DNA from: Patescibacteria group bacterium
GTDB taxonomy: Bacteria; Patescibacteriota; Patescibacteriia; UM-FILTER-42-10
DNA: 64,000 nt
Direction: 5' to 3'
NCBI GenBank assembly: GCA_041664365.1
Contig: JBAYKW010000001.1
Location: 144,862-208,861 of the forward strand
Position numbers and translations under genes: made by a program. The notes below the pieces were generated by a model. That model was not told the DNA's origin. It was given only the letters and a program-made list of their open reading frames with translations, and searched no databases. Positions 8,777 through 57,101 of the stretch are shown here, one piece after another (the first letter of the stretch is position 1; every line of letters begins with the position of its first letter).

Positions 8777-8813
8777 CGCGCTGTTTTGAGAGGGGAATAC
8801 AGCGCTTTTTTTA
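8777..8813 (+). terminator. rho-independent terminator after the OMP gene
   Basis: Stem GCGCTGT / ACAGCGC followed by TTTTTTT, read directly. Confidence 0.6.
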
Positions 8814-8961
8814 TTCTTGTATATTACGATTGATGAAAATATTTATATATTGAAGTTATTTTAATAAACCAAAAAGCAGAAGCAACCAGTTCATGGTGCT
8901 AAGTTCATACTTAGTTGTAATGGAGTTAAGAATCTAGGGAAATAGTATCCTAGATCCTATA

Positions 8962-9764: not shown

Positions 9765-10175
9765 TTATATTTTAGCCAAATCTCCGTTCAATGTAATCGG
9801 TTGCATAGCCAGAATTTCATCAGAGTAAAACATGTCAGGAATATTGTTCAACATGAAAATTGTTTTGTTTAAACAATGCGCAAACCCCATCTCCAGAAAA
9901 GCGTTTCCGCCGATATAATTGTGAATACCATTTTTATCAACATTAACAATCAGCACTGCGTCAGCTTTTTTTATCTCTTCAAAATAATCACGTATCAGAT
10001 CTTGTTCAATCTTATCTTTGATTGATTCATAGGAAGTGTCCACACCTAATCCCATTTCAGCATACTCTTTTGTATGCTTTGGCAATATTACTTCATGATT
10101 ATGCTTAAGCAATTCCTTCTCTATATCTAACATTTGAACAGCGGATGACATGCTCCCGCATATTACGATTTTCAT
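9765..10175 (-). CDS. nucleoside 2-deoxyribosyltransferase-like protein (Rossmann-like, NDT/DNPH1 superfamily)
   Basis: IVICGSMSS ... VLIVNVDKNGIHNYIGGNAFLEMGFAHCLNKTIF resembles the NDT-family active-site region (E-x-G-x-A). A paralog lies at 38204-38635. Start is placed at the second Met, directly after the upstream kinase stop. Confidence 0.55.
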   Translation of the reverse strand: MKIVICGSMSSAVQMLDIEKELLKHNHEVILPKHTKEYAEMGLGVDTSYESIKDKIEQDLIRDYFEEIKKADAVLIVNVDKNGIHNYIGGNAFLEMGFAHCLNKTIFMLNNIPDMFYSDEILAMQPITLNGDLAKI

Positions 10176-10738: not shown

Positions 10739-11215
10739 TTATTCAAAAATTATTCCAGATAAATATCTTTCTATCAAAATTTTGTCTGCCGGGAATAGAT
10801 TAAGTTTTAAAGCATCCTTTGGTGTATACCATTGCCAATCCAATCGTCCCTCGTTCTCGAGATCGGAAAAGTTACCATCTACATAATCTGCCTTCATTCC
10901 AATAGTAACATAACTTTTTTCTTTATCGGTTCTATAAAAATCATATACCGAAATAAGTTGAATATTTTCTATTTTAATACCACTTTCCTCTTTAACCTCA
11001 CGAGCAGCACATTCTTTTAGCGTTTCGCCTGATTCCCAATGTCCACCTGGAACACCAAAGACAGCTTCTCCCTTACGAGTATCTTTGCCAATGGCAATTT
11101 TCCCCTCTTTTGCTACAACCGTAGCCACTCCAATAGATGGAGGATTGGATTCATTATTTTGAGACATAAGTTTATTTTTAATATATATTTTGAAAATATT
11201 TCGCCTAACAGACAA
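10739..11215 (-). CDS. Nudix hydrolase
   Basis: Nudix box GGHWESGETLKECAAREVKEESGI. Confidence 0.7.
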   Translation of the reverse strand: MSVRRNIFKIYIKNKLMSQNNESNPPSIGVATVVAKEGKIAIGKDTRKGEAVFGVPGGHWESGETLKECAAREVKEESGIKIENIQLISVYDFYRTDKEKSYVTIGMKADYVDGNFSDLENEGRLDWQWYTPKDALKLNLFPADKILIERYLSGIIFE

Positions 11216-12334: not shown

Positions 12335-13159
12335 TTAATCCTTTTTTTCTAATATAATTCTTGAGATTTCTGCGGCTATAAATTTCATTTCTTGCCTTGC
12401 TTTTTTTACTTCTTCCATTGTTGAAGGGGAGGAATTTTTAGTTGGATGGGCACTGATTTGATTAGTTTTTTCAACGCCAGTAAACATTCTTTTGTAAAAA
12501 GATAATCCAGCAAAATCCGTAGATCCATAAATAATTTTTTTGTTTTTCAGAGTTTCTAAATTTCCGAGATCTTGTGGATCATCTACGGATAATGATGCAA
12601 TGTCAAAATCTACATCCTGCTTTTCAAGTATTCTAGCTAAAGATCCTATACTGTATCCGGTTTGTATGTGTTCTGTTACCAGTAAAGCTTTATCGATGGA
12701 TAATTTTTTTTCAGCAATAAATTGTTGGATAGCTTCATTGATTTGAGCATTATGATGTTGTCCTCCTGCTATAAAGAATGTTTGTACAGGTTCTTCTTCT
12801 AATTCAGCTTTTTTTCTGTTAATTACTTCTCTTAAAAATAAGGATATAATCCTACCGCTAGCGTCATCACTAATTATAGTATCATAATTTGTTATCCTAT
12901 CTTCCAACTCAATGACTAAGCGGGCAAGAGACATAATCACTTCTATCGCTTTTTTTTGCCCCCAGTATTCTAATAAAAATGGAATATTTTTTAGTACATA
13001 ATCCGCGTCAATACAGTCCATTATTCTTTTTTCCGCAATTTCATCCACTTGTCTGGTTATCAGTATGTCTTCAGGGGGGTTTTCAGATTCGACGGCAGTT
13101 TGTTCGGTAGGTTTTTTATCAGAGCTTTCTCTTGTTGGTGATTCAAAAAAAGTTTTCAT
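12335..13159 (-). CDS. hypothetical protein with possible phosphoribosyltransferase-like PRPP motif
   Basis: ALLVTEHIQTGYSIGSL loosely resembles the type I PRTase PRPP-binding loop (four hydrophobics, two acidics, TG). The match is weak. Confidence 0.3.
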   Translation of the reverse strand: MKTFFESPTRESSDKKPTEQTAVESENPPEDILITRQVDEIAEKRIMDCIDADYVLKNIPFLLEYWGQKKAIEVIMSLARLVIELEDRITNYDTIISDDASGRIISLFLREVINRKKAELEEEPVQTFFIAGGQHHNAQINEAIQQFIAEKKLSIDKALLVTEHIQTGYSIGSLARILEKQDVDFDIASLSVDDPQDLGNLETLKNKKIIYGSTDFAGLSFYKRMFTGVEKTNQISAHPTKNSSPSTMEEVKKARQEMKFIAAEISRIILEKKD

Positions 13160-13232
13160 ACTTTTTATAATTTATTACTATTCAATATAATTGGCCTGCA
13201 AATGAGAAGTTGACCGTGAGTAATTGTGATAA

Positions 13233-13310
13233 AATTATAACATCACAGGCACAAGAAGACAATTTGCGAAAACCAGCTCTTTTAAGCTGGCTTTCTTGCG
13301 TACGCTCGCC
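13233..13310 (+). repeat. ~75-bp direct repeat copy 1, containing hairpin CCAGCTCTTTTAAGCTGG
   Basis: ...catcacaggcacaagaagacaatttgcgaaaaccagctcttttaagctggctttcttgcgtacg... recurs at 14063-14140 at roughly 90% identity. Confidence 0.75.
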
Positions 13311-13346
13311 TATACTTGCAGTCTATGGCGAGACGCACGCCGTTGG

Positions 13347-13979
13347 TTATTTAATAAAACTTAATATTTGTGACAGGTCATCAATAACGATGTCTGCACT
13401 GGATAAGTCATTACTAATTCTCGATTTGAAACCAATTGTTGTAATACCTAGCTTTTGTGCGACGGGAAAAATAGTAGACATATCATCGATATAAACAATA
13501 TTTTTTGGTTCAATATTAAGGAAACTAAGCGCTTTTTTCAGGCCCTCTGGGTGTGGTTTTGGATGTTCAACGTCCTGACCACTAATTATAAAAGAAAAAT
13601 ATTCTTGGAGATTAAATTTGTTTAAGCCAGAATTTATTCCATATTTATCTACACTGCTTAAAATTCCCATTTTAATTCCTTTTTGAGAAAGTGCCACTAG
13701 AACGTCGTTTGCATTTTTGGTGAGTTTCACAAAATCAGCGTACTTAGGATAGAAAGTTTTCATCATTGGCAATACCTTTTCTATATCTTTTTTTGATACT
13801 CCGTTGTCAAAAAAGAACTTATGCCAGTCTTGTTTTATTTCTTGAAACCAAGTAGAGGGGCCAACTGTTTTTCCGCTAAGTGCTTTAACGATGTCACAAT
13901 TTGCTCGAGCAACGGCATCTAAATCATCAATAATTACTCCATTCCAATCAAAGATAATAGCCTTTATTGTTTTATTCAT
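13347..13979 (-). CDS. HAD-family hydrolase (beta-phosphoglucomutase/phosphatase-like)
   Basis: Motif I IIFDWNGVI (DxDGV-type) and a C-terminal YIDDM motif IV. Confidence 0.75.
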   Translation of the reverse strand: MNKTIKAIIFDWNGVIIDDLDAVARANCDIVKALSGKTVGPSTWFQEIKQDWHKFFFDNGVSKKDIEKVLPMMKTFYPKYADFVKLTKNANDVLVALSQKGIKMGILSSVDKYGINSGLNKFNLQEYFSFIISGQDVEHPKPHPEGLKKALSFLNIEPKNIVYIDDMSTIFPVAQKLGITTIGFKSRISNDLSSADIVIDDLSQILSFIK

Positions 13980-14062
13980 AAATCATATATTCTATAATAA
14001 GCCCATAGAATTTCGCACAATAGGTAGTATATGCGAAGATGCCTTTGTGGTGACTATGATAC

Positions 14063-14140
14063 AATTTTAACATCACGGGCATAAGAAGACAATTTACAGA
14101 AAACCAGCTCTTTTAAGCTGGCTTTCTTGCATACGCGATG
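14063..14140 (+). repeat. ~75-bp direct repeat copy 2 (same orientation as 13233-13310)
   Basis: ...catcacgggcataagaagacaatttacagaaaaccagctcttttaagctggctttcttgcatacg... Confidence 0.75.
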
Positions 14141-14231: not shown

Positions 14232-14894
14232 TTACTCGGGTAATCCGGCTCGTTCCCTTATAGCATTAACTTTTTCCTCGACTGTGGTGAAAAGATTCTC
14301 TATGGCTTCTATTTTTTCTAAATATGTTTTTCCACTATAAATTATTATTTCATCAAATCCAGGGTCCCTCTTCATTATTTCTTCAAATGCTTTAATATTA
14401 TCTTCTTGACCACCTTTTTCTTTTAATGCAGCTATATATTTATTTATTTTTCTAAAAAGTATCTCTGATCGTCTGTCAACAAATTTATCAGATAATTTTG
14501 ATATTACTGCTTCATTTTCAAACATACCCCTTTTTTGTGTTTCTTTCTCATACGCTTCAAACCTACTATTAAAACTATTATTACAAGCATATAGTAGTTT
14601 CAATTTTTCTGCTTCACTAATACTTTCATCGCTTGTAATTTCGTCTATATCAGAAATTAAGTATTCTAGAATAGCGTCAAGGCGACGTTCATCATGTGGG
14701 TGTTCAGCAACTTCATTGTACCTTTCATTTCCACTCTTTTGATTTAATACACGTTTGTTTGCCGATGCAATTATTTCTTCTCGTACTTCAGCGTATGATT
14801 CTGTACTATTGTCTATTGTTGGCATCTCATCAGCTGGAGGTATTTGCTCATCGGTTTCGTCTACTATTGGGGATGGGGATCCAAATTCGTTCAT
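14232..14894 (-). CDS. hypothetical acidic protein
   Basis: 220-aa ORF predicted to be helical and acidic. No family recognised. Confidence 0.3.
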   Translation of the reverse strand: MNEFGSPSPIVDETDEQIPPADEMPTIDNSTESYAEVREEIIASANKRVLNQKSGNERYNEVAEHPHDERRLDAILEYLISDIDEITSDESISEAEKLKLLYACNNSFNSRFEAYEKETQKRGMFENEAVISKLSDKFVDRRSEILFRKINKYIAALKEKGGQEDNIKAFEEIMKRDPGFDEIIIYSGKTYLEKIEAIENLFTTVEEKVNAIRERAGLPE

Positions 14895-15470: not shown

Positions 15471-15836
15471 ATGGAATCACCAAAAATTGGCATGGATGAT
15501 CCAAAACCAAAACCCGAGCAAGTAAAAAAGGAATTTCAATTTGGTCTATTAGTGAGTCCAAAACAACTTTGGAATGTTCTTTATGAGAGAGATATTAATG
15601 CCCCTTGGACGGTTGCTAAGCAACAAATCCTAAATAATATAACTAAATTTCTTCAGGATAGAGGCAGACATGTAGATGGAGTAGAGATGGAAAGAATAGA
15701 TAAAATTTTAGAAGGTGCCGATGAGGAATTTAAAAATCCAGCTGGAAATACGGAAAAATATCCCAGCGGAACACTCGCTTGGGGTATGGACAAACTCCAA
15801 CAAGCTATAGCGGAAGAATTAAATAGAAGAGAATAA
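15471..15836 (+). CDS. hypothetical protein
   Basis: 121-aa ORF with no recognised motif. Confidence 0.3.
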   Translation: MESPKIGMDDPKPKPEQVKKEFQFGLLVSPKQLWNVLYERDINAPWTVAKQQILNNITKFLQDRGRHVDGVEMERIDKILEGADEEFKNPAGNTEKYPSGTLAWGMDKLQQAIAEELNRRE

Positions 15837-16035
15837 ATTGCAAAAACTGTAAGAGGAAATTTTTTGTTTACATAACTTAATAGTACATAAGCGGTTCTGC
15901 TTATTACACTTTGTCACATTACTCATATTTGCCGAGTTGTAGCCATCGGTATATCACGTAACATGTAGTAGTTGCTTATGCGCAAACGTTAAACAAGTAA
16001 ATAAAAAAAGCGCTGATTGAATATCAACGCGCGCT

Positions 16036-33580: not shown

Positions 33581-34138
33581 ATGAAATTTCCAAAAAATTC
33601 GAAAAAGGTATTTACAGGAAAAATATTCAGTGTATATCAATGGCGCCAGAAGATGTATGACGGGACGTATAAGATATTTGAAGGTGCCTATCGAAAGGCA
33701 ACTGTTGATATTATTGCAACGGTTGGTGATAAAATAATCGTACTGAAGCAGGAACAGCCAACTAAACCGCTTTTTCCGTCGCTTCCGGGTGGTGGTATTG
33801 AAAGCGGCCAAACTGCTTTACAAACCGTAAAAAGGGAACTGCTGGAAGAAACCGGGTTTGCTGCAAAAAAAATTATTAAATATAAATATTTTGAAGGAAC
33901 TCCCAAGATAATATTTCATCAGTTTGTTTTTATAGCCAAAGAATGTGCCAAAGTTTCCGATCAGCATCTGGATAGCGGTGAAAGAATTACAGTTACTTTT
34001 AAAACCTTTGATCAGTTTTTGCAGCTTTGCCGTGACGAACGTTTTACCGCAGTACTCGGCCTACGATTTATAATGTATGAAGCACTTTTGGATCGGAAAA
34101 AATATATGGAATTGAAAAAAGTGATATTCAAAAAATAG
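33581..34138 (+). CDS. Nudix hydrolase (ADP-ribose pyrophosphatase-like)
   Basis: Nudix box GGGIESGQTALQTVKRELLEETGF. Confidence 0.7.
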   Translation: MKFPKNSKKVFTGKIFSVYQWRQKMYDGTYKIFEGAYRKATVDIIATVGDKIIVLKQEQPTKPLFPSLPGGGIESGQTALQTVKRELLEETGFAAKKIIKYKYFEGTPKIIFHQFVFIAKECAKVSDQHLDSGERITVTFKTFDQFLQLCRDERFTAVLGLRFIMYEALLDRKKYMELKKVIFKK

Positions 34139-34148
34139 ACGAAAACTT

Positions 34149-34604
34149 ATGCCCAAGAGAGACTATTACCACATATCTTTAAAGCTGATTTTAAAAAATG
34201 AAAAAGACGAAGTTTTGGTATTGGGTTCAGACCCGAAAGGGAGTCTGTTAGGCAAATATGATTTGCCCGGCGGTAGAATTGACGAGTCGGAATTTAGTAC
34301 TCCCTATGAGCAAATTATCAGACGCGAAGTTTCCGAGGAAGTCGGTAATATTGAATTATCACTAAATCAAAAGCCGGTCGCCATCGGTCGCCATTTAATT
34401 CCGAAAAAATTAACGAGTGAGAATAAGGATATTCACATCATGTATATATTTTTTGAAGCAAAAATGATCAGTGGCAACATACAGATCAGTTCAGAACATA
34501 ATGGATATAAATGGGTTAAACTTGGCGAGAATGATCCCGCTGACTATTTCACATCCGGTATTTTGGAAGGAATAAATATGTATCTATCTAATTCTAATAA
34601 ATAA
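34149..34604 (+). CDS. Nudix hydrolase
   Basis: Nudix box GGRIDESEFSTPYEQIIRREVSEEVG. Confidence 0.65.
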   Translation: MPKRDYYHISLKLILKNEKDEVLVLGSDPKGSLLGKYDLPGGRIDESEFSTPYEQIIRREVSEEVGNIELSLNQKPVAIGRHLIPKKLTSENKDIHIMYIFFEAKMISGNIQISSEHNGYKWVKLGENDPADYFTSGILEGINMYLSNSNK

Positions 34605-34612
34605 TTTATAAA

Positions 34613-35053
34613 ATGAAGATCAAAGTCATTTGCGGTGCCGTGGTTGTAAAAGATAATAAATTTGTGATAGTCCAGGAAGCACAAGGTCTCGTGCGCGGTC
34701 TGTGGAATATTCCGGCCGGCCATCTGGATGACGAAGAGGATCTTAAAAGTGCGGCTGTACGAGAGGTGAAAGAGGAGACGGGTCTGGATGTTAAACTGGA
34801 AGGTCTGATTGGCATTTACCAACATAAAAGCTTGCATGGCAATAATGTCGTTGGCTTTTATTTCAAAGCGTCTGTACTAGGCGGTGAGCTGTTAATTAAT
34901 CCTGTTGAAATCCTTGATTCCAAATGGGTAACTTTTGAGGAGTTTTTGAATTACCCAGAAAATATTGTCCGAGCGCTACTGTTGAAAACAGTCATCAAAG
35001 ACTATTTGGATCATGGCTCTGTTGATAATAGAATAAATAGCGGAATTAATTAG
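34613..35053 (+). CDS. Nudix hydrolase
   Basis: Nudix box AGHLDDEEDLKSAAVREVKEETGL. Confidence 0.7.
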   Translation: MKIKVICGAVVVKDNKFVIVQEAQGLVRGLWNIPAGHLDDEEDLKSAAVREVKEETGLDVKLEGLIGIYQHKSLHGNNVVGFYFKASVLGGELLINPVEILDSKWVTFEEFLNYPENIVRALLLKTVIKDYLDHGSVDNRINSGIN

Positions 35054-42097: not shown

Positions 42098-42135
42098 AAA
42101 ATCGACTGTAAAATTGAGCAGTCGGTTTTGATTTA
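42098..42135 (+). terminator. rho-independent terminator after typA
   Basis: AAAATCGACTG...CAGTCGGTTTT hairpin plus T-run. Confidence 0.55.
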
Positions 42136-42138
42136 CAG

Positions 42139-42167
42139 TTGATTTTTAAGCTAAAATATGCTAAGAT
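42139..42167 (+). promoter_or_regulatory. sigma70-like promoter (TTGATT-17-TAAGAT) for paralog 1; duplicated at 42844-42872
   Basis: ttgatttttaagctaaaatatgctaagat. The same string with 4 substitutions lies upstream of paralog 2. Confidence 0.5.
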
Positions 42168-42196
42168 ACGGTCATCTAAGTATTAATCAAAATATT

Positions 42197-42688
42197 ATGG
42201 CAGATCCAAAAATGCCAATGCCTGGCACACCAGATGATAATATGCCTGACGAGACTTCAGTTGATGAGAATAATCAGGAGACAATGGAGGCGGAAGTAAA
42301 CGAAAAAATAAGAGTATTTTTTGCTGATATAACAGAGTTGCGAGCTACCGGTGAGTTTGCTAGGAAAGACATATATAGTCAGTATTTTGACCAAGTATTT
42401 GATTCAATAAGTAAAAGTAAAGGTGAATATGTAAATTTTGATCATGTTGCTAACCAAGTTGACAATGCTACAGATATAATAAGAAGACTTCAGTTTAAAT
42501 GCGAAGCCGAAGCGCGTCATAAAAAGGATGAAGGAAATGATGTTATTAGTGAAAAAATGAATCAATTAGTAAAAAGAGCAGAAGAGATCTTACATCAGAT
42601 AATGGTAATAGCTTATAGAAAACATTACGATCTAGATTATGATGAGGTCCAGAGGGCATATGCAGAAATTCAAAAAGACGAAGAATGA
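42197..42688 (+). CDS. hypothetical acidic protein, M-A-D-P-K-x-P N-terminal family, paralog 1
   Basis: Starts MADPKMPMPG. The C-terminal RAEEILHQIM is shared with paralog 2. The ORF-track start at 42158 lies inside the conserved promoter string and is rejected. Confidence 0.4.
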   Translation: MADPKMPMPGTPDDNMPDETSVDENNQETMEAEVNEKIRVFFADITELRATGEFARKDIYSQYFDQVFDSISKSKGEYVNFDHVANQVDNATDIIRRLQFKCEAEARHKKDEGNDVISEKMNQLVKRAEEILHQIMVIAYRKHYDLDYDEVQRAYAEIQKDEE

Positions 42689-42843
42689 CATTTTGATGAA
42701 AATTTAAACAATAGTAAGAAAGATCAAGTGAAATTGTAACTCATAGAATTGGTGATTGATAGCAATCATCATGATCAGTAATCTTAGAAAAGAATAGTCA
42801 GTAAAATAGACCACAATAGTAGGTGGTCTATTGTTTTGTAGCT

Positions 42844-42872
42844 TGATTTTTAAGCTAAAATGTGGTAAACTT
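42844..42872 (+). promoter_or_regulatory. duplicated sigma70-like promoter (TTGATT-17-TAAACT) for paralog 2
   Basis: ttgatttttaagctaaaatgtggtaaact. Near-identical to 42139-42167. Confidence 0.5.
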
Positions 42873-42899
42873 CACTTAATTAAGTATTAAAACAATATT

Positions 42900-43307
42900 A
42901 TGGCTGATCCAAAACTACCAACATATGGGCAGGATAAAGAGTCTGAAAATAATGTGGAAGTAATGAAGTCATTAGTAAGTCAAAAAACAGAATCGCTATT
43001 TTCTGATTTAATGGAATCATATTCAGAAGATGAAGATCTTAACCTGGAGGATTATCATAGTCAGAATTTTGAATATTATCTAAATAGAATAAGACAATAT
43101 AGTTATATATATCCAGATGGACAGAATCCTGATATGGAGGAAGATGAGCGTTCCTTTTTAAAAAGAATTAAAACTATATGTGAAATGGAAAAAGAATTTC
43201 AGGCAGAAAATATGAATGAAGTTCTGCGAAATAAATATCAAAATTTTACTGAAAGAGCCGAAGAAATTTTACAACTGATAGGTGCCATAATTGATGCGTC
43301 AAAATAA
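42900..43307 (+). CDS. hypothetical acidic protein, M-A-D-P-K-x-P family, paralog 2
   Basis: Starts MADPKLPTYG. C-terminal ERAEEILQLIGAI. Confidence 0.4.
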   Translation: MADPKLPTYGQDKESENNVEVMKSLVSQKTESLFSDLMESYSEDEDLNLEDYHSQNFEYYLNRIRQYSYIYPDGQNPDMEEDERSFLKRIKTICEMEKEFQAENMNEVLRNKYQNFTERAEEILQLIGAIIDASK

Positions 43308-49095: not shown

Positions 49096-49120
49096 TTAAT
49101 GTAATTACCGCTATCTCTCT

Positions 49121-49153
49121 GTCATTATCGGGCTTGGCCCGGTAATCCAAAAA
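49121..49153. repeat. palindromic repeat unit B1 (GTCATTATCGGGCTTGGCCCGGTAATCCAAAAA)
   Basis: Hairpin CGGGC-ttgg-CCCGG. About 75% identical to unit A. Confidence 0.7.
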
Positions 49154-49160
49154 CAATCAA

Positions 49161-49205
49161 TGGATCCCCGGACCACCTTCTGCGAAGGCGTCCGAGGATG
49201 ACAAT
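49161..49205. repeat. palindromic repeat unit D (GGATCCCCGGACC-loop-GTCCGAGGATGACA) with internal hairpin CCTTC-tgc-GAAGG
   Basis: Same terminal arms as C1 with a longer loop. Confidence 0.6.
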
Positions 49206-49242
49206 ACTGGGGTTTACTGACATGTCAAATACAATTTTTAAT

Positions 49243-49272
49243 GTCATCTTCGGACTTGGTCCGGAGATCCAC
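49243..49272. repeat. palindromic repeat unit A1 (GTCATCTTCGGACTTGGTCCGGAGATCCAC)
   Basis: Exact 30-nt copy recurs at 49645-49674. Hairpin CGGAC-ttg-GTCCG. Confidence 0.8.
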
Positions 49273-49281
49273 GAATAGAAT

Positions 49282-49569
49282 ATGAACCAATACTACGTTT
49301 ACATAATGGCAAGTAAAAAGAATGGAACGCTTTACATAGGCGTTACGAATAATATTATCAGAAGAGTATATGAGCATAAGAATAATGAAGTTGAAGGATT
49401 TTCGAAGAAATATAAAGTGCATAGACTAGTCTATTACGAGCAAACAGAAAATGTGGAGAGTGCATTGAATCGTGAAAAGCAATTAAAAAAGTGGAATAGA
49501 GAGTGGAAAATTAATTTAATACAAAAAGAAAATCCGAATTGGAAAGATTTATATAACGAGCTAATATAA
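49282..49569 (+). CDS. GIY-YIG nuclease-family protein (UPF0213/YhbQ-like)
   Basis: YYVYIMASKKNGTLYIGVTNNIIRRVYEHK contains the GIY...YIG...R...E catalytic motifs. At 95 aa it resembles E. coli YhbQ. Confidence 0.75.
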   Translation: MNQYYVYIMASKKNGTLYIGVTNNIIRRVYEHKNNEVEGFSKKYKVHRLVYYEQTENVESALNREKQLKKWNREWKINLIQKENPNWKDLYNELI

Positions 49570-49575
49570 AGACAT

Positions 49576-49626
49576 GGATTCCCGTTCCCCGATCAAGTCG
49601 AGGACAAGCTTTGCGGGAATGACAAA
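49576..49626. repeat. palindromic repeat unit C2 (GGATTCCCG-long loop-CGGGAATGACA)
   Basis: Same arms as C1 with an expanded loop. Confidence 0.6.
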
Positions 49627-49644
49627 CAATGTAGTATAACAAAT

Positions 49645-49674
49645 GTCATCTTCGGACTTGGTCCGGAGATCCAC
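49645..49674. repeat. palindromic repeat unit A2 (exact copy of A1)
   Basis: gtcatcttcggacttggtccggagatccac is identical to 49243-49272. Confidence 0.8.
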
Positions 49675-49689
49675 AAACAATCTAAAACT

Positions 49690-49722
49690 GTCATTCTCGG
49701 GCTTGACCCGGGAATCCAAAAA
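49690..49722. repeat. palindromic repeat unit B2 (GTCATTCTCGGGCTTGACCCGGGAATCCAAAAA)
   Basis: Differs from B1 at 4 positions. Confidence 0.7.
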
Positions 49723-51220: not shown

Positions 51221-51817
51221 ATGAAGTTTGAAGTTGAAAAAAGAAGTAAAATAGATGATGCTGAAGAAATAGAAAGAGTTAAGGAATACTTATCTGCACA
51301 CGGAGAGTACCTGGGCTCAAAAATGATGCGCTCTTTTCTATTTCGGAATCCTACATCTCTACGAATTCGTCTGATTGAAGGAAAGGATTCAGCATTGGTT
51401 ACAATAAAGAAAGGTGAATATGCTGATCCGGCGATGGAAGAAGAGGAGTATGAAGTACCATTAACAGAATTAGATGCTTTTATTGAGCAAAAAAAAGTTG
51501 AAGGCTATGAGGCATGTTCAGAAGTAAATACTTTTCGCGAAACATATATTTTAAATGGATTGAAAATTGAGATAAATGATATTGATTCTTTGGGTTTGAT
51601 TATTGAGATAGAGGCATTGACTGAAGATAAAGATGAAATAGATGGTTTAGAAGAACGAATTCGTGAGACAATGCAGGAATTAAATTTGCCGGAACTCGAT
51701 CCATCTGAATATAAATTGATGATGGACGCAATGCAGGACGAAACAAATAGGCCAGTAAGTGAGCAAGTTTTTACAGTTGATTGGGATGAAGATATTAATG
51801 AGAAGAAAATTAAGTAA
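51221..51817 (+). CDS. CYTH-domain protein (triphosphate tunnel metalloenzyme, CyaB/ThTPase-like)
   Basis: N-terminal MKFEVEKRSKI resembles the CYTH ExExK motif. Acidic beta-strand pattern throughout. Confidence 0.45.
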   Translation: MKFEVEKRSKIDDAEEIERVKEYLSAHGEYLGSKMMRSFLFRNPTSLRIRLIEGKDSALVTIKKGEYADPAMEEEEYEVPLTELDAFIEQKKVEGYEACSEVNTFRETYILNGLKIEINDIDSLGLIIEIEALTEDKDEIDGLEERIRETMQELNLPELDPSEYKLMMDAMQDETNRPVSEQVFTVDWDEDINEKKIK

Positions 51818-52374
51818 TGAGTCTAATGAGTAGAACCTGGAAAAAATTGAATTCAAAGATTGTATATAGTAACTCTTGGATAAAAGTCCATGAGGATCAA
51901 GTTTTGAAGCCGGATGGTAAGGAAGGTATCTATGGTTATCTGGAAAAAAACCAAGCTTGCTTTGTGATAGCGCTGGATAATGAAGAAAATATCTATCTGG
52001 TAAAACAGTTCAGATATGCTCTGCAAAAAACAATTCTGGAATTACCGGCCGGTACGGTAAATAATGAAGATATCGCTGATAGAGCAAAAGCGGAACTTTT
52101 GGAAGAAGCAGGAATAGAAGCAAAGGAATGGAAAAGGCTGGGTGGGTTTTACGTAGCACCAGGGCATGAATCTACTTATATTAATGTTTACCTCGCGACG
52201 GATTTAGATTTATCCAAACTATCTACCAGTGGGCAAGATGATGATGAATCAATATTGGAGATAGTTAAAGTAAGTCAGCCAGAATTAAAGAAGATGTTAA
52301 CAGATGGAAAGATTGAATGCGGAATATCGATAGCCGCTTTGAATCTGTTTTTTCTGAGTCATAATAAAAGTTAA
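51817..52374 (+). CDS. Nudix hydrolase (ADP-ribose pyrophosphatase NudF-like)
   Basis: Nudix box AGTVNNEDIADRAKAELLEEAGI. N-terminal substrate-recognition beta-domain. Confidence 0.7.
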   Translation: MSLMSRTWKKLNSKIVYSNSWIKVHEDQVLKPDGKEGIYGYLEKNQACFVIALDNEENIYLVKQFRYALQKTILELPAGTVNNEDIADRAKAELLEEAGIEAKEWKRLGGFYVAPGHESTYINVYLATDLDLSKLSTSGQDDDESILEIVKVSQPELKKMLTDGKIECGISIAALNLFFLSHNKS

Positions 52375-52384
52375 GATTGTGAGT

Positions 52385-52460
52385 ATGAAAAAGATTGAGA
52401 AAAAAGTTTGGCAGGAATATTTTCAGTAAATATTGGATGGTAACAAAAAATTAAAAACTT
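52385..52460 (+). pseudogene. decayed 5' fragment of the DUF3850 gene (intact copy at 53479)
   Basis: atgaaaaagattgagaaaaaagtttggcaggaatattttcagTAAatattggatgg... is ~88% identical to 53479-53550 and translates MKKIEKKVWQEYFQ* with an in-frame stop. Confidence 0.7.
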
Positions 52461-52478
52461 TATTGTTAAATAAATATT

Positions 52479-53420
52479 ATGCTAGAAAAATCAACCCAGG
52501 AGAAAGAGCAAAAACGTATTGTTAAAAAAATTAGCGGTTTTACAATATTAGGAATATTTTTGACTGTAGGTTCCTTGCCGGTTTGGTTTGGTGGTAATAT
52601 GGTAGGATACTTGCTACGTTTTGAAGAGTGGTATGCCTTCAATATTTTTAATTATTTTGCATTTGTCATGCTTCTTGTTGGTGTGTATTTCCTCATCAAG
52701 GCAAACCAAAAAAGCCAACAAAAAAATATACCAACAAATTCTACTAAGTATGCATTTATCGCTGCATCTTTTTGTCTATTGATAATATTCTTAACAATAG
52801 TGTTTCCCAGTTTAAACACAATTATTAAAAAAAACATAACTCCTTTATCAACATTTGTTCTTGATGACGGATCATTTATTAGTGTACGTGAATATAGAGA
52901 ATACTCAAAAAAATTGATTGGCATTTTACCTGGAAATAATTTAAATGAGGATAGAGTTGATGTTGTAAGAGCACGTGTTGTAAACAGCAAATACGAATTT
53001 ATTTGGGAAAATGTATATTTGAGAAAATCAACACAAGGTTTAAGTGTGACGCCAGGTACAGCAATAGAGGGTGCAAACATTATGGAAGAGATTTCTAATA
53101 GAATTCCAAATGTTCTGCATTTGGATAACTATGATGGTAAGACGATTAGGAAATGTTCAGATGGAAGTATTCAAATTGCCTGGGAAAAAACAAGTCGGGA
53201 TAGTTCCCCAATAAATGATGCACATATAGATATTGATACAGGAAAAACTGTTGCATTTCAGAATGTTGCATTTCCACATCTGGAATTTGAGCAACCATTA
53301 TGTGACGAAACTATACCTGAAAGTATATGGCAAGATATGAGTCACTGTCTTGGAAACAGCCAGATCGAAACATTATCTGGCAAAGAGTGTTCCGAGGCTG
53401 TCTTTAAGACTTTGCAATGA
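52479..53420 (+). CDS. hypothetical membrane protein (2-3 N-terminal TM helices plus a soluble domain)
   Basis: 313-aa ORF with N-terminal hydrophobic helices. No recognised motif. Confidence 0.3.
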   Translation: MLEKSTQEKEQKRIVKKISGFTILGIFLTVGSLPVWFGGNMVGYLLRFEEWYAFNIFNYFAFVMLLVGVYFLIKANQKSQQKNIPTNSTKYAFIAASFCLLIIFLTIVFPSLNTIIKKNITPLSTFVLDDGSFISVREYREYSKKLIGILPGNNLNEDRVDVVRARVVNSKYEFIWENVYLRKSTQGLSVTPGTAIEGANIMEEISNRIPNVLHLDNYDGKTIRKCSDGSIQIAWEKTSRDSSPINDAHIDIDTGKTVAFQNVAFPHLEFEQPLCDETIPESIWQDMSHCLGNSQIETLSGKECSEAVFKTLQ

Positions 53421-53478: not shown

Positions 53479-53742
53479 ATGAAAAAAATTGAGAAAAAAG
53501 TTTGGCCGGAATATTTTCAGCAAATACTGGACGGTGACAAGAAATACGAACTTCGTCTTGCTGATTTTGACTGCCAACCCGGTGATGTATTGCTATTAAA
53601 AGAATGGGACAATAAAACCAAAAAATATACCGGCAGGGAAATTGAAAAGGAAGTAACTTCCATTTTGAAAACAAAGGATGTAAAATTTTGGAATGAAGAG
53701 GAAATAGATAAACATGGGTTTCAGATTATTTCTTTTAAGTAA
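53479..53742 (+). CDS. DUF3850 (ASCH/PUA-like) domain protein
   Basis: KVWPEYFQQILDGDKKYELRLADFDCQPGDVLLLKEWD matches the DUF3850 consensus (W.EYF..V..G.K.FE.R.ND..FQVGD.L.L.E). Confidence 0.55.
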   Translation: MKKIEKKVWPEYFQQILDGDKKYELRLADFDCQPGDVLLLKEWDNKTKKYTGREIEKEVTSILKTKDVKFWNEEEIDKHGFQIISFK

Positions 53743-53788: not shown

Positions 53789-54286
53789 ATGGAAAAATTC
53801 AGTCTGCCGATTATTTCCGCGATTATTGAGAGGCAAAAAGACGGAGAAACAGAAATATTGGTTCAAACTAGGTGGAAACCGGAAGAAGATCCTGTATATA
53901 CGGGATGTTTGGAAATTCCGGCAGGAAAAATAAGGGAATTTGAAAATGTCTATGATGCTTTAAATAGAGAGGTGAAGGAAGAAACGGGGTTGAAAATAAC
54001 CAGTATTTTTCCAGATATTAAAACAAAAACGCATTCTCCAAAGGATGACGGATCGTTCGCTTTTCAGCCGTTTTGCTGCCAGCAACAAACAAAAGGAGGA
54101 CGACCATGGATCGGTTTCGTTTTTATTTGCAATGTTGAGGATAAGACACCATTAAAGGAGGGGGATAATACAAGAGATATTCGTTGGATAAAAAAATCTG
54201 AATTGAAGAGAATTTTTGAAGAAACACCAGAAAAGATATTTACCCTGCAATTAGGGGTTTTGGATTATTACTTTAATAAAAGTTAG
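53789..54286 (+). CDS. Nudix hydrolase
   Basis: Nudix box AGKIREFENVYDALNREVKEETGL. Confidence 0.65.
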   Translation: MEKFSLPIISAIIERQKDGETEILVQTRWKPEEDPVYTGCLEIPAGKIREFENVYDALNREVKEETGLKITSIFPDIKTKTHSPKDDGSFAFQPFCCQQQTKGGRPWIGFVFICNVEDKTPLKEGDNTRDIRWIKKSELKRIFEETPEKIFTLQLGVLDYYFNKS

Positions 54287-54321: not shown

Positions 54322-54418
54322 ATGATCAAAATCAGAAAACACTTGCCGAAAGATATTCCGTACCGTGTTTTATGGTTAATTACCACAAGGTAAACAGGTT
54401 CACTGGTGAGGGAGTTTG
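54322..54418 (+). pseudogene. decayed 5' fragment (~100 nt) of the GNAT acetyltransferase gene (intact copy at 56592)
   Basis: atgatcaaaatcagaaaacacttgccgaaagatattccgtaccgtgttttatggtt... is ~88% identical to 56592-56695. It translates MIKIRKHLPKDIPYRVLWL then frameshifts (1-nt deletion) to a stop. Confidence 0.7.
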
Positions 54419-54971: not shown

Positions 54972-55880
54972 ATGAAATTCAAACAGATAGTATTATTAGA
55001 CAAGGTGGGACTTTCTGATAACGCGGTTGAGAAACTTGCGAAATTTTCTGATAGCCCGATAAAGACATTTTCCTCTGATCCTGCGGATGAAGCGGAAGTG
55101 TGTAAAAGAATCTCGGATGCTGACTGCATCATGCTGACCTGGCGGACATCAATATCAAAAGAAGTGCTTGCAAAGTGTGAGAACCTGAAATTCATCTGCC
55201 TTTGCTCTACTAATTCCAATAATATTGATCTGAATGAATGTGCAAAAAGAGGTATCACAGTTTCCAACGTGCGCGATTATGGAGACGAGGGAGTTGTGGA
55301 GTGGATTATCATGCAGTTATTGCTCCTGTTCAGAGGAGTCGGAAAAAATCAATATAAAGGGTTTAGTTCAGAACTAAGCGGGAAAACAATCGGGATATTT
55401 GGTATGGGTGTTGTAGGAAAACTGCTTGCCAAGGCAGCAAAAGGTCTTGGTATAAATGTTTTGTATAACAGTAAAACCAGGAATTCTGATCTGGAAAAAC
55501 AGGGGATACAGTTTGTGGAGAAAAGCAGTCTGCTGGCGAAGAGTGATATCATTGGCCTGCATACACCGAAGAATGTAAAGATTTTGGACAAATCGGACTT
55601 CGATCTGATGCAAGGAAAAATTCTCGTTAATACAACCCTGGGAAAAGCATTTGATTCAAGCGATTTTATGAGATGGATTAAGCGTGAAAATAATTTTGCG
55701 ATATTTGATGGAGCGTCAGAATTTGGCGCGGAATTTGAGGGATTGGATAGAGTAATATATTCAGATGTAGTCTCTGGTTTAACAAATGAAGCAATAGAAA
55801 GATTGAGCCAAAAAACCTTAGATAATGTAGCCTCATATATTTCGGGTAATCCGATTAATGTAGTCACAGGTTTAAAATAA
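54972..55880 (+). CDS. D-isomer-specific 2-hydroxyacid dehydrogenase family protein
   Basis: GIFGMGVVGKLLAKAAKGLGINVLY (GxGxxG NAD-binding motif) plus downstream catalytic R/E/H positions. Confidence 0.8.
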   Translation: MKFKQIVLLDKVGLSDNAVEKLAKFSDSPIKTFSSDPADEAEVCKRISDADCIMLTWRTSISKEVLAKCENLKFICLCSTNSNNIDLNECAKRGITVSNVRDYGDEGVVEWIIMQLLLLFRGVGKNQYKGFSSELSGKTIGIFGMGVVGKLLAKAAKGLGINVLYNSKTRNSDLEKQGIQFVEKSSLLAKSDIIGLHTPKNVKILDKSDFDLMQGKILVNTTLGKAFDSSDFMRWIKRENNFAIFDGASEFGAEFEGLDRVIYSDVVSGLTNEAIERLSQKTLDNVASYISGNPINVVTGLK

Positions 55881-55892
55881 ATATAATAATTC

Positions 55893-55945
55893 ATGCTCAA
55901 AATCCGAAAAAATTTACCGAGAGATATTCCATGCCGGTTTTTTTA
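55893..55945 (+). pseudogene. decayed 5' fragment (~50 nt) of the GNAT acetyltransferase gene
   Basis: atgctcaaaatccgaaaaaatttaccgagagatattccatgccggttttt is ~85% identical to 56592-56641. It translates MLKIRKNLPRDIPCRFF*. Confidence 0.65.
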
Positions 55946-55958
55946 AACAAAAAAATAT

Positions 55959-56588
55959 ATGAATAAAAAAAGAATACTATGTTATGGCGATTCCAATACT
56001 TGGGGATGTGTCCCTGGAACCAGGTTTGAAAGATTTTCTGAGGAAATCAGATTTCCAAAGCGCCTCCAAAAACTATTAGGGACTGATTTTGAAATTATTG
56101 AAGAAGGACTATACAGCCGGACACTGGCATCTGAATATGATCGACCGAATAAAGAGGGTAGAAATGGGAGTACGTATTTTGTCCCATGCCTTTTATCTCA
56201 TGATCCGCTAGATTTGGTAATTATAATGCTTGGAACTACAGAATTAAAAGCAGAATTCAATAATTCGGTGGAAGAAATTGGTAGATATCTGGAGGACTAT
56301 TATATTAGAGTTATTTCGAAAATCAAATATCTGACTCGAGATGAATCTCCTGAATTATTAATTATATGTCCACCAATAATTAACGAGAGTCTTACGTCCA
56401 AAAGATATGCCGGTGGGGAGGAGAAATCGAAACAGTTAGCTGGGGTGTATTCAAAAATTTCCAATAGTAACAAATGTGCGTTTATTGACGCAAGTAAACT
56501 AATGGTTGGTTCTGACGGAGTTCATATGACGGAAGAAAGTCATAAGAAACTTGCGGAAATGATTGCATATGAAATAAATAAGAAGTAA
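55959..56588 (+). CDS. SGNH/GDSL-family hydrolase
   Basis: ILCYGDSNTWG (block I GDS), block III GTTE and block V DGVHMT. Confidence 0.75.
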   Translation: MNKKRILCYGDSNTWGCVPGTRFERFSEEIRFPKRLQKLLGTDFEIIEEGLYSRTLASEYDRPNKEGRNGSTYFVPCLLSHDPLDLVIIMLGTTELKAEFNNSVEEIGRYLEDYYIRVISKIKYLTRDESPELLIICPPIINESLTSKRYAGGEEKSKQLAGVYSKISNSNKCAFIDASKLMVGSDGVHMTEESHKKLAEMIAYEINKK

Positions 56589-56591
56589 TTT

Positions 56592-57101
56592 ATGCTCAAA
56601 ATCAGAAAACATTTACCGAAAGATATTCCGTACCGTGTTTTATGGTTGAATGACCATAAGGTAAACAAGTTTACTGGTGAGGAAGTTTGGGAAGAGACAA
56701 CACTGAGGAAACAAAAACAGTGGTTTGCCGAATATCAAAAGTCTGACGAAAAACGTTTTTTTACCATCTGTGACGGAACGAAGCCGGTTGGATTCATGGG
56801 ACTGTCTAAAATATCCAAGATAAATAAAAATGCGGATTTGTTTGTTGCCATCGGTGATGCTGATTACCGCGGAAAAGGCGTAGGAAGATTAGTAATGACC
56901 TGGATAATTGATTACGGTTTTAATAAGCTCAAACTGCATAAAATTTATTTGAACGTCTATGAGGATAATATTCCGGCAGTTAATTTATATAAATCTTTGG
57001 GCTTTGTCGTAGAGGGGAAGATAAAAGATGATGTTTTCTTTGGAGGGAAATTCCATAACACTTTGTACATGGCAAAATTTTATAAACGATCTAAAAAGTA
57101 A
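56592..57101 (+). CDS. GNAT-family N-acetyltransferase
   Basis: YRGKGVGRLVMTWIIDYGF...LKLHKIYLNVYEDNIPAVNLYKSLGF contains acetyl-CoA-binding motif A (R/QxxGxG/A). Confidence 0.75.
   Translation: MLKIRKHLPKDIPYRVLWLNDHKVNKFTGEEVWEETTLRKQKQWFAEYQKSDEKRFFTICDGTKPVGFMGLSKISKINKNADLFVAIGDADYRGKGVGRLVMTWIIDYGFNKLKLHKIYLNVYEDNIPAVNLYKSLGFVVEGKIKDDVFFGGKFHNTLYMAKFYKRSKK

What the first reader, a model, noticed from the sequence alone, without database searches (positions are those of the whole stretch)
13233..14140. Single HAD-hydrolase gene bracketed by ~75-bp direct repeats carrying a perfect hairpin
Two same-orientation copies (~90% identical) of a ~75-nt sequence lie immediately upstream and downstream of the HAD hydrolase gene at 13347-13979. 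Each contains the perfect inverted repeat CCAGCT-CTTTTA-AGCTGG inside the conserved core ...AAGAAGACAATTTRCRGAAAACCAGCTCTTTTAAGCTGGCTTTCTTGCRTACGC.... The arrangement resembles attL/attR around a one-gene cassette. It could also be a repeated structured RNA or terminator unit (hairpin then GCTTTCTT). Together with the GNAT/DUF3850 pattern it suggests that small one-gene modules in this genome move or are exchanged.
Basis: seen in the sequence. Interest (0 to 1): 0.6.

Follow-up and report, generated by a model that had tools for sequence, protein, structure and literature searches.

The report
Duplicated terminator-promoter spacer flanking HAD gene
In an uncultured Patescibacteria (CPR) chromosome, one HAD-hydrolase gene lies between two ~90%-identical copies of an ~86-nt intergenic unit made of a stem-loop and a strong promoter-like site; this is most likely a locally duplicated regulatory spacer, not a mobile-element attachment site or a common repeat.

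Summary
Two same-orientation copies (13220-13305 and 14050-14136, weaker similarity to ~105 nt) bracket the HAD gene (13347-13979, minus strand). The core is 88.5% identical and includes a 32-nt identical block with the hairpin.

All genes here are on the minus strand. Read that way, each copy is an A-tract/12-bp stem-loop/U-tract followed by TTGTCT-17-TATAAT (TAAAAT in copy B) with a TG extension. These are among the best sigma70-type matches in the window. The next spacer upstream has the same hairpin-then-promoter layout with an unrelated sequence, so the layout is generic. What is unusual is that two adjacent spacers share one sequence.

- Only two copies exist in 81 kb of the contig.
- None were found in the genome, metagenome or viral collections, and there is no Rfam match.
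- There are no attC core sites and no recombinase anywhere in the window.
- No close relative exists (best homologues 52-68% aa identity), so presence/absence could not be tested.

Best reading: a duplicated terminator-promoter spacer created when the HAD gene was gained or rearranged. It is analogous to phage PeSL cassettes but not a member of that family. Two other loci in the window show unrelated genes bracketed by ~90%-identical 5'-end fragments of the downstream gene, so recombination-driven exchange of single-gene modules remains plausible but unproven. Interest is modest.

The parts
14031..14136 (-). Repeat copy B. The core is 14050-14136 and the weaker tail runs to 14031. It lies in the 252-nt spacer between the 220-aa gene and the HAD gene.
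13202..13305 (-). Repeat copy A. The core is 13220-13305 and the weaker tail runs to 13202. It lies in the 187-nt spacer between the HAD gene and the 274-aa gene.
14099..14126 (-). Stem-loop of copy B on the sense strand: GAAAGCCAGCUU-AAAA-GAGCUGGUUUUC. The stem is 12 bp including one G-U pair, with an A-tract before it and a U-tract after it.
   Evidence: dG -18.4 on the sense strand against -12.5 on the antisense strand
13268..13295 (-). Stem-loop of copy A, identical in sequence to that of copy B.
14064..14092 (-). Promoter-like site of copy B: TTGTCT-17-TAAAAT with TG at the extended -10 position, about 85 nt upstream of the HAD ATG.
13234..13262 (-). Promoter-like site of copy A: TTGTCT-17-TATAAT with a TG extension, about 75 nt upstream of the ATG of the 274-aa gene. 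It ties for the top promoter score in the window.
13347..13979 (-). HAD-IA family hydrolase gene (210 aa), the only gene between the two copies.
13298..13340 (-). Unique GC-rich hairpin (dG -24.6) directly after the HAD stop codon. Its 3' arm uses the first 8 nt of repeat A. It has no U-tract and no other copy.
14232..14894 (-). Upstream neighbour, a 220-aa protein with no Pfam family. It is not a paralogue of the 274-aa gene.
12335..13159 (-). Downstream neighbour, a 274-aa protein with no Pfam family. Its homologues in other CPR contigs are not adjacent to a HAD gene.

Best explanation
The repeat is an ordinary intergenic regulatory spacer that exists in two copies.

**How it is built (sense = minus strand)**
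- Each copy starts with a stem-loop flanked by an A-tract and a short U-tract. This would terminate or attenuate transcription coming from the upstream gene.
- About 10 nt later there is a sigma70-type promoter (TTGTCT, 17-nt spacer, TG-extended TATAAT/TAAAAT). This would start transcription of the downstream gene with a 5' leader of roughly 70-80 nt.
- Copy B would therefore end the 220-aa gene's transcript and drive the HAD gene. Copy A would end the HAD transcript and drive the 274-aa gene.

**How the two copies arose**
- They arose by a local duplication or recombination event tied to the gain or rearrangement of the HAD gene, without a dedicated recombinase.
- As 86-nt direct repeats with a 32-nt identical block, they could still allow RecA-type deletion of the 831-bp unit.

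**Shown versus inferred**
- Shown: the repeat, its anatomy, its rarity, and the absence of recombinases and att-type motifs.
- Inferred: the terminator and promoter activities, and the mode of origin.
For: - All neighbouring genes are co-oriented on the minus strand, each with its own spacer.
- The sense-strand hairpin is a continuous 12-bp stem (dG -18.4). The antisense version has a C-A mismatch (dG -12.5). Both spacers fold better than shuffles, z = -5.6 and -3.9.
- Sigma70-type hexamer pairs are enriched upstream of genes in this genome: 25% of 44 upstream regions score >=10, against 1% of coding controls. Copy A ties for the best score in the window (11.5) and copy B scores 10.5.
- The 10 differences between the copies avoid the hairpin and the -35 hexamer, and the -10 hexamer differs at one position, its third.
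- The spacer upstream of the 220-aa gene has the same hairpin-then-promoter layout with an unrelated sequence: GCCATT...AATGGC, then TTGCAA-16-TATAAT.
- Only 2 copies exist in 81 kb, with none in the genome, metagenome or viral collections and no Rfam family.
- No recombinase is present in the window.
- The HAD gene has the same low GC as its neighbours, 0.33.
Against: - The U-tract after the stem is short (UUUUC). Clear terminators elsewhere in the window carry 7 T's, so termination may be weak, or the palindrome may act as a DNA operator instead.
- With only two copies there is no covariation. The 32-nt identical run is only weakly non-random (P about 0.08).
- No transcript data are available.
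- Only about 81 kb of a 392-kb contig, and of a genome of unknown total size, could be searched, so further copies elsewhere cannot be excluded.
- The origin cannot be determined without a closer relative. The possibilities are duplication with gene gain, Campbell-type insertion, or gene conversion between spacers.
Confidence: 0.55

Rival explanations
1. The unit is an operator plus promoter rather than a terminator plus promoter. The 12-nt-arm palindrome AGAAAGCCAGCT-N6-AGCTGGTTTTCT, centred at about -55 from the predicted start site, would be a binding site for a dimeric transcription factor. The two copies would be kept alike because the HAD gene and the 274-aa gene are co-regulated.
For: - The palindrome lies at a typical activator or repressor distance upstream of the -35 hexamer and is 100% conserved between the copies.
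- The U-tract is short for a terminator.
- The neighbourhood looks functionally coherent and related to nucleotide metabolism: NUDIX, a P-loop kinase, a deoxyribosyltransferase-like 136-aa protein and the HAD.
Against: - The G-U pair makes the stem perfect only at the RNA level on the sense strand, while the DNA palindrome has one mismatch.
- No regulator gene lies next to the unit; the nearest HTH genes are the ArsR-type gene at 17308 and the MarR-type gene at 35118.
- No other copy of the palindrome exists in the window.
Confidence: 0.2
2. The copies are members of a dispersed multi-copy intergenic repeat family (REP-, MITE- or Correia-like, or a genome-wide terminator family). Under this reading, their position on both sides of one gene is a coincidence.
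For: - Hairpin-containing intergenic repeats are common in bacteria.
- Other hairpin repeats do exist in this window, at 49118-49722.
- Only part of the genome could be searched.
Against: - Exactly two copies, 831 nt apart, are found in 81 kb by nhmmer at E<=1.
- Neither half occurs in 185,579 species genomes, JGI metagenome contigs or IMG/VR.
- There are no terminal inverted repeats beyond the internal hairpin.
Confidence: 0.08
3. The copies are attL/attR, or integron-type attC sites, of a one-gene cassette that a site-specific recombinase inserts and excises.
For: - Direct repeats bracket a single gene and share a 32-nt identical core that contains an inverted repeat.
- The region is an accessory-looking, low-GC block of small co-oriented genes.
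Against: - No tyrosine or serine recombinase, transposase or IntI is present anywhere in the window or in the added flanks.
- No RYYYAAC or GTTRRRY core sites occur on either strand.
- The hairpin covers only 28 of 86 nt, and the other spacers in the block lack the sequence.
- One boundary decays gradually.
- Each copy carries a promoter-like site, unlike promoterless integron cassettes.
Confidence: 0.05
4. Each copy encodes a structured non-coding RNA, either a small RNA or a cis-regulatory leader, present as two paralogous copies.
For: Both spacers fold significantly better than shuffled sequence.
Against: - There is no Rfam match, even at E<=1.
- The only conserved helix is a single simple hairpin, and it lies upstream of the predicted promoter, not inside the leader.
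- Similarity decays within about 30 nt of the predicted transcription start.
Confidence: 0.03

Closest known systems
PeSLs (promoter-early stem-loops), the composite terminator/promoter cassettes of T4-type phages (Arbiol et al. 2010, PMC2839356; Comeau et al. 2014, PMC4122927)
   Same: - Both are short composite units made of a stem-loop followed by a sigma70-type promoter.
- Both lie between co-oriented small genes.
- Both occur as direct repeats on each side of a single non-essential gene, so that homologous recombination between the copies could delete or circularise the gene (for the definition; for the anatomy here).
   Different: - This unit is in a CPR bacterial chromosome, not a phage.
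- There are two copies in 81 kb rather than dozens clustered in hyperplastic regions.
- The stem is not polyG/polyC.
- No indel polymorphism or mini-circle has been shown.
- There is no sequence similarity to PeSLs.
Bidirectional intrinsic (Rho-independent) terminators
   Same: A GC-core stem is flanked by an A-tract on one side and a T-tract on the other, so that either strand gives a hairpin followed by U's.
   Different: - The U-tract is short (UUUUC) compared with the 7-T tails of other terminators in this window.
- No plus-strand gene needs terminating here.
- The repeat extends about 55 nt beyond the hairpin into a promoter-like segment.
Integron gene cassettes with attC sites, including CALIN arrays
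   Same: Small co-oriented accessory genes are separated by similar hairpin-forming sequences.
   Different: - There are no R''/R' core sites.
- There is no IntI.
- Only two spacers share the sequence.
- The units carry their own promoter-like sites.
attL/attR direct repeats left by Campbell-type integration of a circular DNA
   Same: A single segment is bracketed by direct repeats of the target sequence. Similar brackets at the DUF3850 and GNAT loci have about the same ~90% identity.
   Different: - No integrase or mobile-element genes are present.
- The insert is a single metabolic gene.
- The copies are 88-91% identical, not identical.
- Neither an empty site nor a circular form has been observed.

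Membership tests
PeSL (T4-type phage promoter-early stem-loop cassette) | One short unit that combines a stable stem-loop with a sigma70-like promoter | tested here: met
   The 12-bp sense-strand stem (dG -18.4) is followed by TTGTCT-17-TATAAT/TAAAAT with a TG extension. Promoter scores are among the top in the window.
PeSL (T4-type phage promoter-early stem-loop cassette) | Many copies per genome, concentrated in hyperplastic regions | tested here: not met
   Two copies in 81 kb.
PeSL (T4-type phage promoter-early stem-loop cassette) | Resides in a T4-type phage genome | tested here: not met
   NCBI names the source a Patescibacteria MAG. The window carries chromosomal housekeeping genes such as BipA, Fpg, Maf and a glutamyl/glutaminyl-tRNA synthetase family (tRNA-synt_1c) gene. 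There is no phage or IMG/VR match.
PeSL (T4-type phage promoter-early stem-loop cassette) | Recombination between copies produces indels between close relatives, and mini-circles | not testable with these tools
   The nearest relatives are 52-68% identical at the protein level. No reads were available.
Integron attC site / cassette array | R'' (RYYYAAC) and R' (GTTRRRY) core sites at the ends of an imperfect palindrome | tested here: not met
   A regex search on both strands of both spacers gave no match.
Integron attC site / cassette array | An integron integrase nearby, or an array of attC sites after successive cassettes | tested here: not met
   No Phage_integrase-type protein is in the window. 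The other spacers of the block lack the sequence.
attL/attR of a site-specific integrative element | A recombinase gene within or next to the bracketed segment | tested here: not met
   The bracketed segment holds only the HAD gene, and no recombinase is in the window (same calls).
attL/attR of a site-specific integrative element | An identical core with sharp boundaries | tested here: inconclusive
   There is a 32-nt identical block. The boundary at 13305/14136 is sharp, while the boundary at 13202-13220 / 14031-14050 decays gradually.
attL/attR of a site-specific integrative element | An unoccupied site (attB) in related genomes or in the population | not testable with these tools
   No close relative exists. 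The only other contigs are identical (L002) or break inside the repeat (L016).
Dispersed intergenic repeat (REP / MITE / Correia-like) | Many dispersed copies in the genome | tested here: not met
   There are 2 adjacent copies in 81 kb and no exact core in any collection. The whole genome was not searched.
Intrinsic terminator | A GC-rich stem immediately followed by a U-rich tract on the transcribed strand | tested here: inconclusive
   The stem is present, but the tail is only UUUUC(G/U). The consensus scan flagged the site on the plus strand only. Activity was not measured.
Any Rfam RNA family | A covariance-model match | tested here: not met
   No hit at E<=1 in 9-18 kb, and none at gathering score in the whole window.
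HAD-like hydrolase (Pfam HAD_2 / Hydrolase), for the bracketed gene | A profile match above the gathering score, plus the catalytic motifs | tested here: met
   HAD_2 scores 96 bits against a cutoff of 23.8. Motif I reads FDWNG (DxN, not DxD) throughout this clade, and motif IV DD is present.

The most novel reading that the evidence does not exclude
The HAD unit would be one of at least three traces in this 64-kb stretch of a general gene-gain route in this CPR bacterium.

- In this route, circularised single-gene DNA from a relative about 90% identical integrates by a single homologous crossover in a short patch of 70-100 nt. The patch is either a promoter spacer or the 5' end of a gene.
- Integration leaves the new gene bracketed by two ~90%-identical copies of the patch.
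- The terminator-promoter spacer would then act like a phage PeSL, both as a portable expression signal and as the recombination handle. That would make this a cellular counterpart of PeSL-mediated modular shuffling.
Probability: 0.2. Interest if true: 0.6.

Novelty: new variant of a known kind. Interest (0 to 1): 0.3.

Why it matters
CPR/Patescibacteria have small genomes with few recognisable mobile elements, and how they gain accessory genes is poorly understood. If short regulatory spacers or gene 5' ends serve as homology handles for adding single genes, as PeSLs do in T4-type phages, that would be a recombinase-free route of gene gain in these episymbionts. It could be tested directly from existing read data. 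If instead this is only a one-off duplicated spacer, its value is practical. It marks a likely strong promoter and terminator for an uncultured lineage, and it explains why short-k assemblies break at this point.

Tried and rejected
- **Phage origin:** megablast of 12-16 kb against 50,697 phage records found no match. Both halves of the repeat are absent from IMG/VR, and the only viral HAD relative is 28% identical.
- **Copies in other genomes:** the exact hairpin core was absent from genome contigs and metagenome contigs, and the promoter half was absent from metagenome contigs. The metagenome collection evidently lacks the short JGI contig L002 that does carry the repeat, so these negatives only cover what that collection holds.
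- **Synteny in relatives:** the backbone DsbD-like protein found only distant MAGs at <=68% identity, and the best one was truncated at the contig end. HAD homologues (<=59%) sit in DPANN-archaeal contexts without the neighbouring genes. Homologues of the 274-aa gene have no adjacent HAD or 220-aa gene. At this distance nothing can be concluded about an ancestral empty site.
- **Empty-site variant:** other contigs carrying the 220-aa gene are either the same contig or a Logan contig that ends inside the repeat, so this is uninformative.
- **Tandem duplication of repeat plus gene:** rejected, because the 220-aa, HAD and 274-aa proteins are unrelated.
- **Structured RNA family:** no Rfam match.
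- **Integron attC:** no core sites.
- **HAD as a compositionally foreign single gene:** rejected. Its GC (0.33) equals that of six neighbouring genes, and the whole ~9.7-15 kb block is low-GC.
- **The D6 repeat (42.1/42.8 kb) as another bracketed cassette:** rejected. The two genes are tandem paralogues.
- **The repeat in L006/L007 next to the 274-aa homologue:** it has an unrelated sequence and is a stem-loop without a promoter.

Full report
**1. What is in the sequence**

The region 12.3-14.9 kb carries three co-oriented minus-strand genes:
- a 220-aa protein with no known family (14232-14894);
- a 210-aa HAD-IA hydrolase (13347-13979; Pfam HAD_2 E=3e-27);
- a 274-aa protein with no known family (12335-13159).

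The two spacers on either side of the HAD gene share a direct repeat: 13220-13305 and 14050-14136, 830/831 nt apart.
- A local alignment extends the similarity to 13202 and 14031, about 105 nt, with decaying identity.
- The 87-column core has 10 differences including one indel, which is 88.5% identity. A 32-nt block that includes the hairpin is identical in both copies.
- blastn self-comparison gives 91% over 80 nt, E=4.5e-24.
- Shuffled sequence gives essentially no matches to either half.

The arrangement is reproduced at 100% identity in a JGI contig that spans both copies (L002). A Logan contig stops at 14101, inside the identical block, as expected for a k=31 assembly graph.

**2. Where it is**

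NCBI names the matching proteins as coming from a "MAG: Patescibacteria group bacterium". The window is part of a 392-kb metagenome contig (window position + 144849 = contig position).

The window is ordinary chromosome. It encodes BipA, Fpg, Maf, a glutamyl/glutaminyl-tRNA synthetase family (tRNA-synt_1c) gene, a 4-alpha-glucanotransferase and many small hydrolases, including at least eight NUDIX genes.

No integrase, transposase or resolvase is present in the window or in the 17 kb added at its ends. The only nuclease-like mobile-type gene is a 95-aa GIY-YIG protein at 49282-49569.

The HAD gene lies in a low-GC block (about 33% against 38-45% elsewhere) spanning roughly 9.7-15 kb. Its own GC (0.33) is the same as that of its neighbours.

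**3. Anatomy on the sense strand**

Read 5'->3' on the minus strand, each copy is:

GCGTAYGC-AAGAAAGCCAGCTTAAAAGAGCTGGTTTTC(T)G-YAAA-TTGTCT-(17 nt)-TAWAAT-...

- **Hairpin.** The hairpin is a continuous 12-bp stem, GAAAGCCAGCUU/GAGCUGGUUUUC, with an AAAA loop. One pair is G-U, so the stem is perfect only as sense-strand RNA (dG -18.4). The antisense version has a C-A mismatch (dG -12.5). An A-tract before the stem and a U-tract after it give the look of a bidirectional intrinsic terminator. The U-tract (UUUUC) is short compared with the clear terminators in this window, which have seven T's.
- **Promoter-like site.** About 10 nt after the hairpin comes TTGTCT, a 17-nt spacer and TATAAT (copy A) or TAAAAT (copy B), each preceded by TG at the extended -10 position.
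- **Does this genome use such promoters?** I tested this directly. Among 44 upstream regions, 25% have a hexamer-pair score >=10, against 1% of 120-nt coding controls. Copy A ties for the best score in the window (11.5) and copy B scores 10.5.
- **Where the differences fall.** The differences between the copies avoid the hairpin and the -35 hexamer. The -10 hexamer differs at one position, its third. The differences cluster in the spacer and downstream of the -10. This fits functional constraint, but with two sequences it is weak evidence: P about 0.08 for a 32-nt clean run.
- **Is the layout special?** It is not. The spacer upstream of the 220-aa gene has a different hairpin (GCCATT...AATGGC) followed by TTGCAA-16-TATAAT. 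Hairpin-then-promoter is the local rule for these monocistronic genes. What is unusual is that two neighbouring spacers share one sequence.
- **HAD 3' hairpin.** Directly after the HAD stop codon there is an additional, unique GC-rich hairpin (13298-13340, dG -24.6). Its 3' arm uses the first 8 nt of copy A.

**4. How common it is**

- nhmmer with a two-copy profile finds only these two copies in the window and in 81 kb of the contig overall.
- The 21-nt hairpin core is absent from one genome for each of 185,579 species, from the JGI metagenome contig collection and from IMG/VR. The promoter half is absent from the last two.
- Rfam has no match, even at E<=1.

**5. Tests of the mobile-cassette reading**

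- There are no attC core sites (RYYYAAC / GTTRRRY) on either strand of either spacer.
- There is no recombinase (section 2).
- The other spacers of the block lack the sequence.
- One repeat boundary is sharp (13305/14136) and the other fades.
- Each copy carries its own promoter-like site, unlike promoterless integron cassettes.
- A simple tandem duplication of repeat plus gene is excluded, because the three proteins are unrelated.

**6. Comparative evidence**

No close relative exists.
- The best homologues are 59% (HAD), 52% (274-aa protein) and 68% (the DsbD-like backbone gene) identical.
- The nearest HAD homologues sit in DPANN-archaeal contexts. L010 has a histone, a tRNA-intron endonuclease and XPG. 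L011 is a Woesearchaeota MAG. Neither has the neighbours seen here.
- Homologues of the 274-aa gene in other CPR contigs are not next to a HAD or a 220-aa gene. In L006/L007, however, a homologue of the 136-aa gene (window 9765-10175) lies 1.7 kb downstream, with different genes in between. This suggests a region with conserved anchors and variable filling.

At these distances none of this proves insertion of the HAD gene at this site. Presence or absence between the flanking genes could not be tested.

**7. The wider pattern in the window**

Self-comparison finds five short local direct repeats outside protein-internal repeats. One, at 42128-42218 / 42831-42921, belongs to a pair of tandem paralogues and is ordinary. 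Two loci resemble the HAD case.
- **DUF3850 locus.** A 76-nt copy (90% identical) of the 5' end of the DUF3850 gene, starting at its ATG and carrying an in-frame TAA, lies upstream of an unrelated 313-aa gene. The intact DUF3850 gene follows that gene (52385-52460 and 53479-53553).
- **GNAT locus.** Two 5'-end fragments of a GNAT gene (54322-54418, 91% identical and frameshifted; 55875-55941, 84% identical) bracket three unrelated genes upstream of the intact GNAT gene at 56592.

In all three loci the duplicated piece is the upstream region or 5' end of the downstream gene. Three of the brackets have nearly the same identity, 90-91%.

That similarity would fit single-crossover integration of circularised DNA from a lineage about 90% identical. 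It fits less well with target-site duplication, where the copies would start identical and would drift under different constraints. This is inference only.

**8. Explanation and comparison with known systems**

The best-supported reading is a duplicated terminator-promoter spacer. Copy B ends the 220-aa gene's transcript and drives the HAD gene. Copy A ends the HAD transcript and drives the 274-aa gene. The duplication dates from the event that placed the HAD gene here.

The closest described system is the PeSL of T4-type phages. PeSLs are composite stem-loop plus sigma70-promoter cassettes that flank ORFans and recombine to shuffle them and to form mini-circles (PMC2839356; PMC4122927).

The unit here works like a PeSL pair in anatomy and placement. 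It fails the membership criteria of phage residence and high copy number, and the recombination criterion could not be tested. I therefore treat it as an analogue, not a member.

The main rival for the function of the hairpin is a DNA operator for a dimeric regulator. Dispersed-repeat, att-site and ncRNA readings are unlikely, for the reasons given above.

**9. Verdict**

This is a real, non-random feature with a mundane most-likely function and an unresolved origin. The attL/attR idea is not supported. The "common terminator" idea is not supported either. The module-exchange idea is plausible and can be tested cheaply from reads. Interest is modest (0.3). It would rise to about 0.6 if read-level evidence showed recombination between the copies at this locus and at the two analogous loci.

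Noticed in passing
window 52385-52460 and 53479-53553: A 76-nt copy (90% identical) of the 5' end of the DUF3850 gene lies just upstream of an unrelated 313-aa gene (52479-53420). The copy starts exactly at the ATG and carries an in-frame TAA where the intact gene has CAA. The intact DUF3850 gene (53479-53742) follows. This is the same 'gene bracketed by a duplicated piece of the downstream gene' layout as at the HAD locus.
   Followed up: partly
window 54322-54418, 55875-55941 and 56572-56689: Two 5'-end fragments of the GNAT gene at 56592-57101 lie upstream of it: one 91% identical with a 1-nt deletion, the other 84% identical. They bracket a 163-aa gene plus a 2-hydroxyacid dehydrogenase, and then an SGNH/GDSL hydrolase. 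The fragment nearer the intact gene is the more diverged one.
   Followed up: partly
window 42128-42218 and 42831-42921: An 80%-identical promoter-like segment (TTGATT-17-TAAGAT/TAAACT), leader and first codons (MADPK) precede two adjacent genes. The genes are tandem paralogues at only 29% aa identity, so the regulatory/5' part is much better conserved than the coding bodies.
   Followed up: yes
window 49118-49722: Four copies of a ~36-nt palindromic unit (TGTCATC/TTCGGxCTTGxCCGxxGATCCA) flank a 95-aa GIY-YIG gene (49282-49569), two on each side. A further GGATTCCCG...CGGGAATGACA palindrome follows the gene. This may be a small GIY-YIG-associated repeat element.
   Followed up: no
window 8796-8832 and 15983-16018: Two similar terminators (CAGCGCTTTTTTTATT..CTTGT..ACG.TTG) in inverted orientation flank the 7.2-kb block that holds the low-GC minus-strand genes, including the HAD gene. 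The alignment score is 39 against a shuffle maximum of 27. They could be boundaries of an inserted or inverted segment, or merely similar terminators of the two genes that face the block.
   Followed up: partly
window 13347-13979 (HAD protein) and homologues P0002-P0016: This HAD clade has FDWNG (DxN) instead of the canonical DxDG in motif I, conserved in all homologues down to 34% identity. More distant Bacillus-type relatives keep DxD. The closest homologues (52-59%) are encoded in DPANN-archaeal contexts, which hints at transfer between CPR bacteria and DPANN archaea.
   Followed up: partly
window 15471-15836 (+): The 121-aa ORF shows weak similarity (34% over 50 aa, E about 2e-4 in a nine-protein comparison) to the C-terminal KPxPE region of the HAD protein. 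It could be a degraded HAD fragment on the opposite strand. It has no Pfam hit.
   Followed up: no
window-wide (630-1154, 10739-11167, 33581-35053, 51817-52374, 53789-54286, 57603-57983): At least eight NUDIX-domain genes lie in 64 kb, three of them in tandem, together with several HAD, metallo-beta-lactamase, histidine-phosphatase and other small hydrolase genes. This is an unusually dense set of 'house-cleaning' or salvage enzymes.
   Followed up: no
L006/L007 6828-6926 and 7209-7306: In the CPR contigs carrying the 52%-identical homologue of the 274-aa gene, a 99-nt direct repeat (77% identical) brackets a 60-aa ORF immediately downstream of that gene. The repeat folds into a conserved stem-loop (GCGTAT...ATACGC outer helix) and is unrelated in sequence to the HAD repeat.
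   Followed up: partly
window 9.7-15 kb, gene starts: By eye, the genes of this block have A/T-rich leaders without a recognisable Shine-Dalgarno sequence, for example AAATTATAAAAAGT-ATG and TATATGATTT-ATG. This was not quantified.
   Followed up: no
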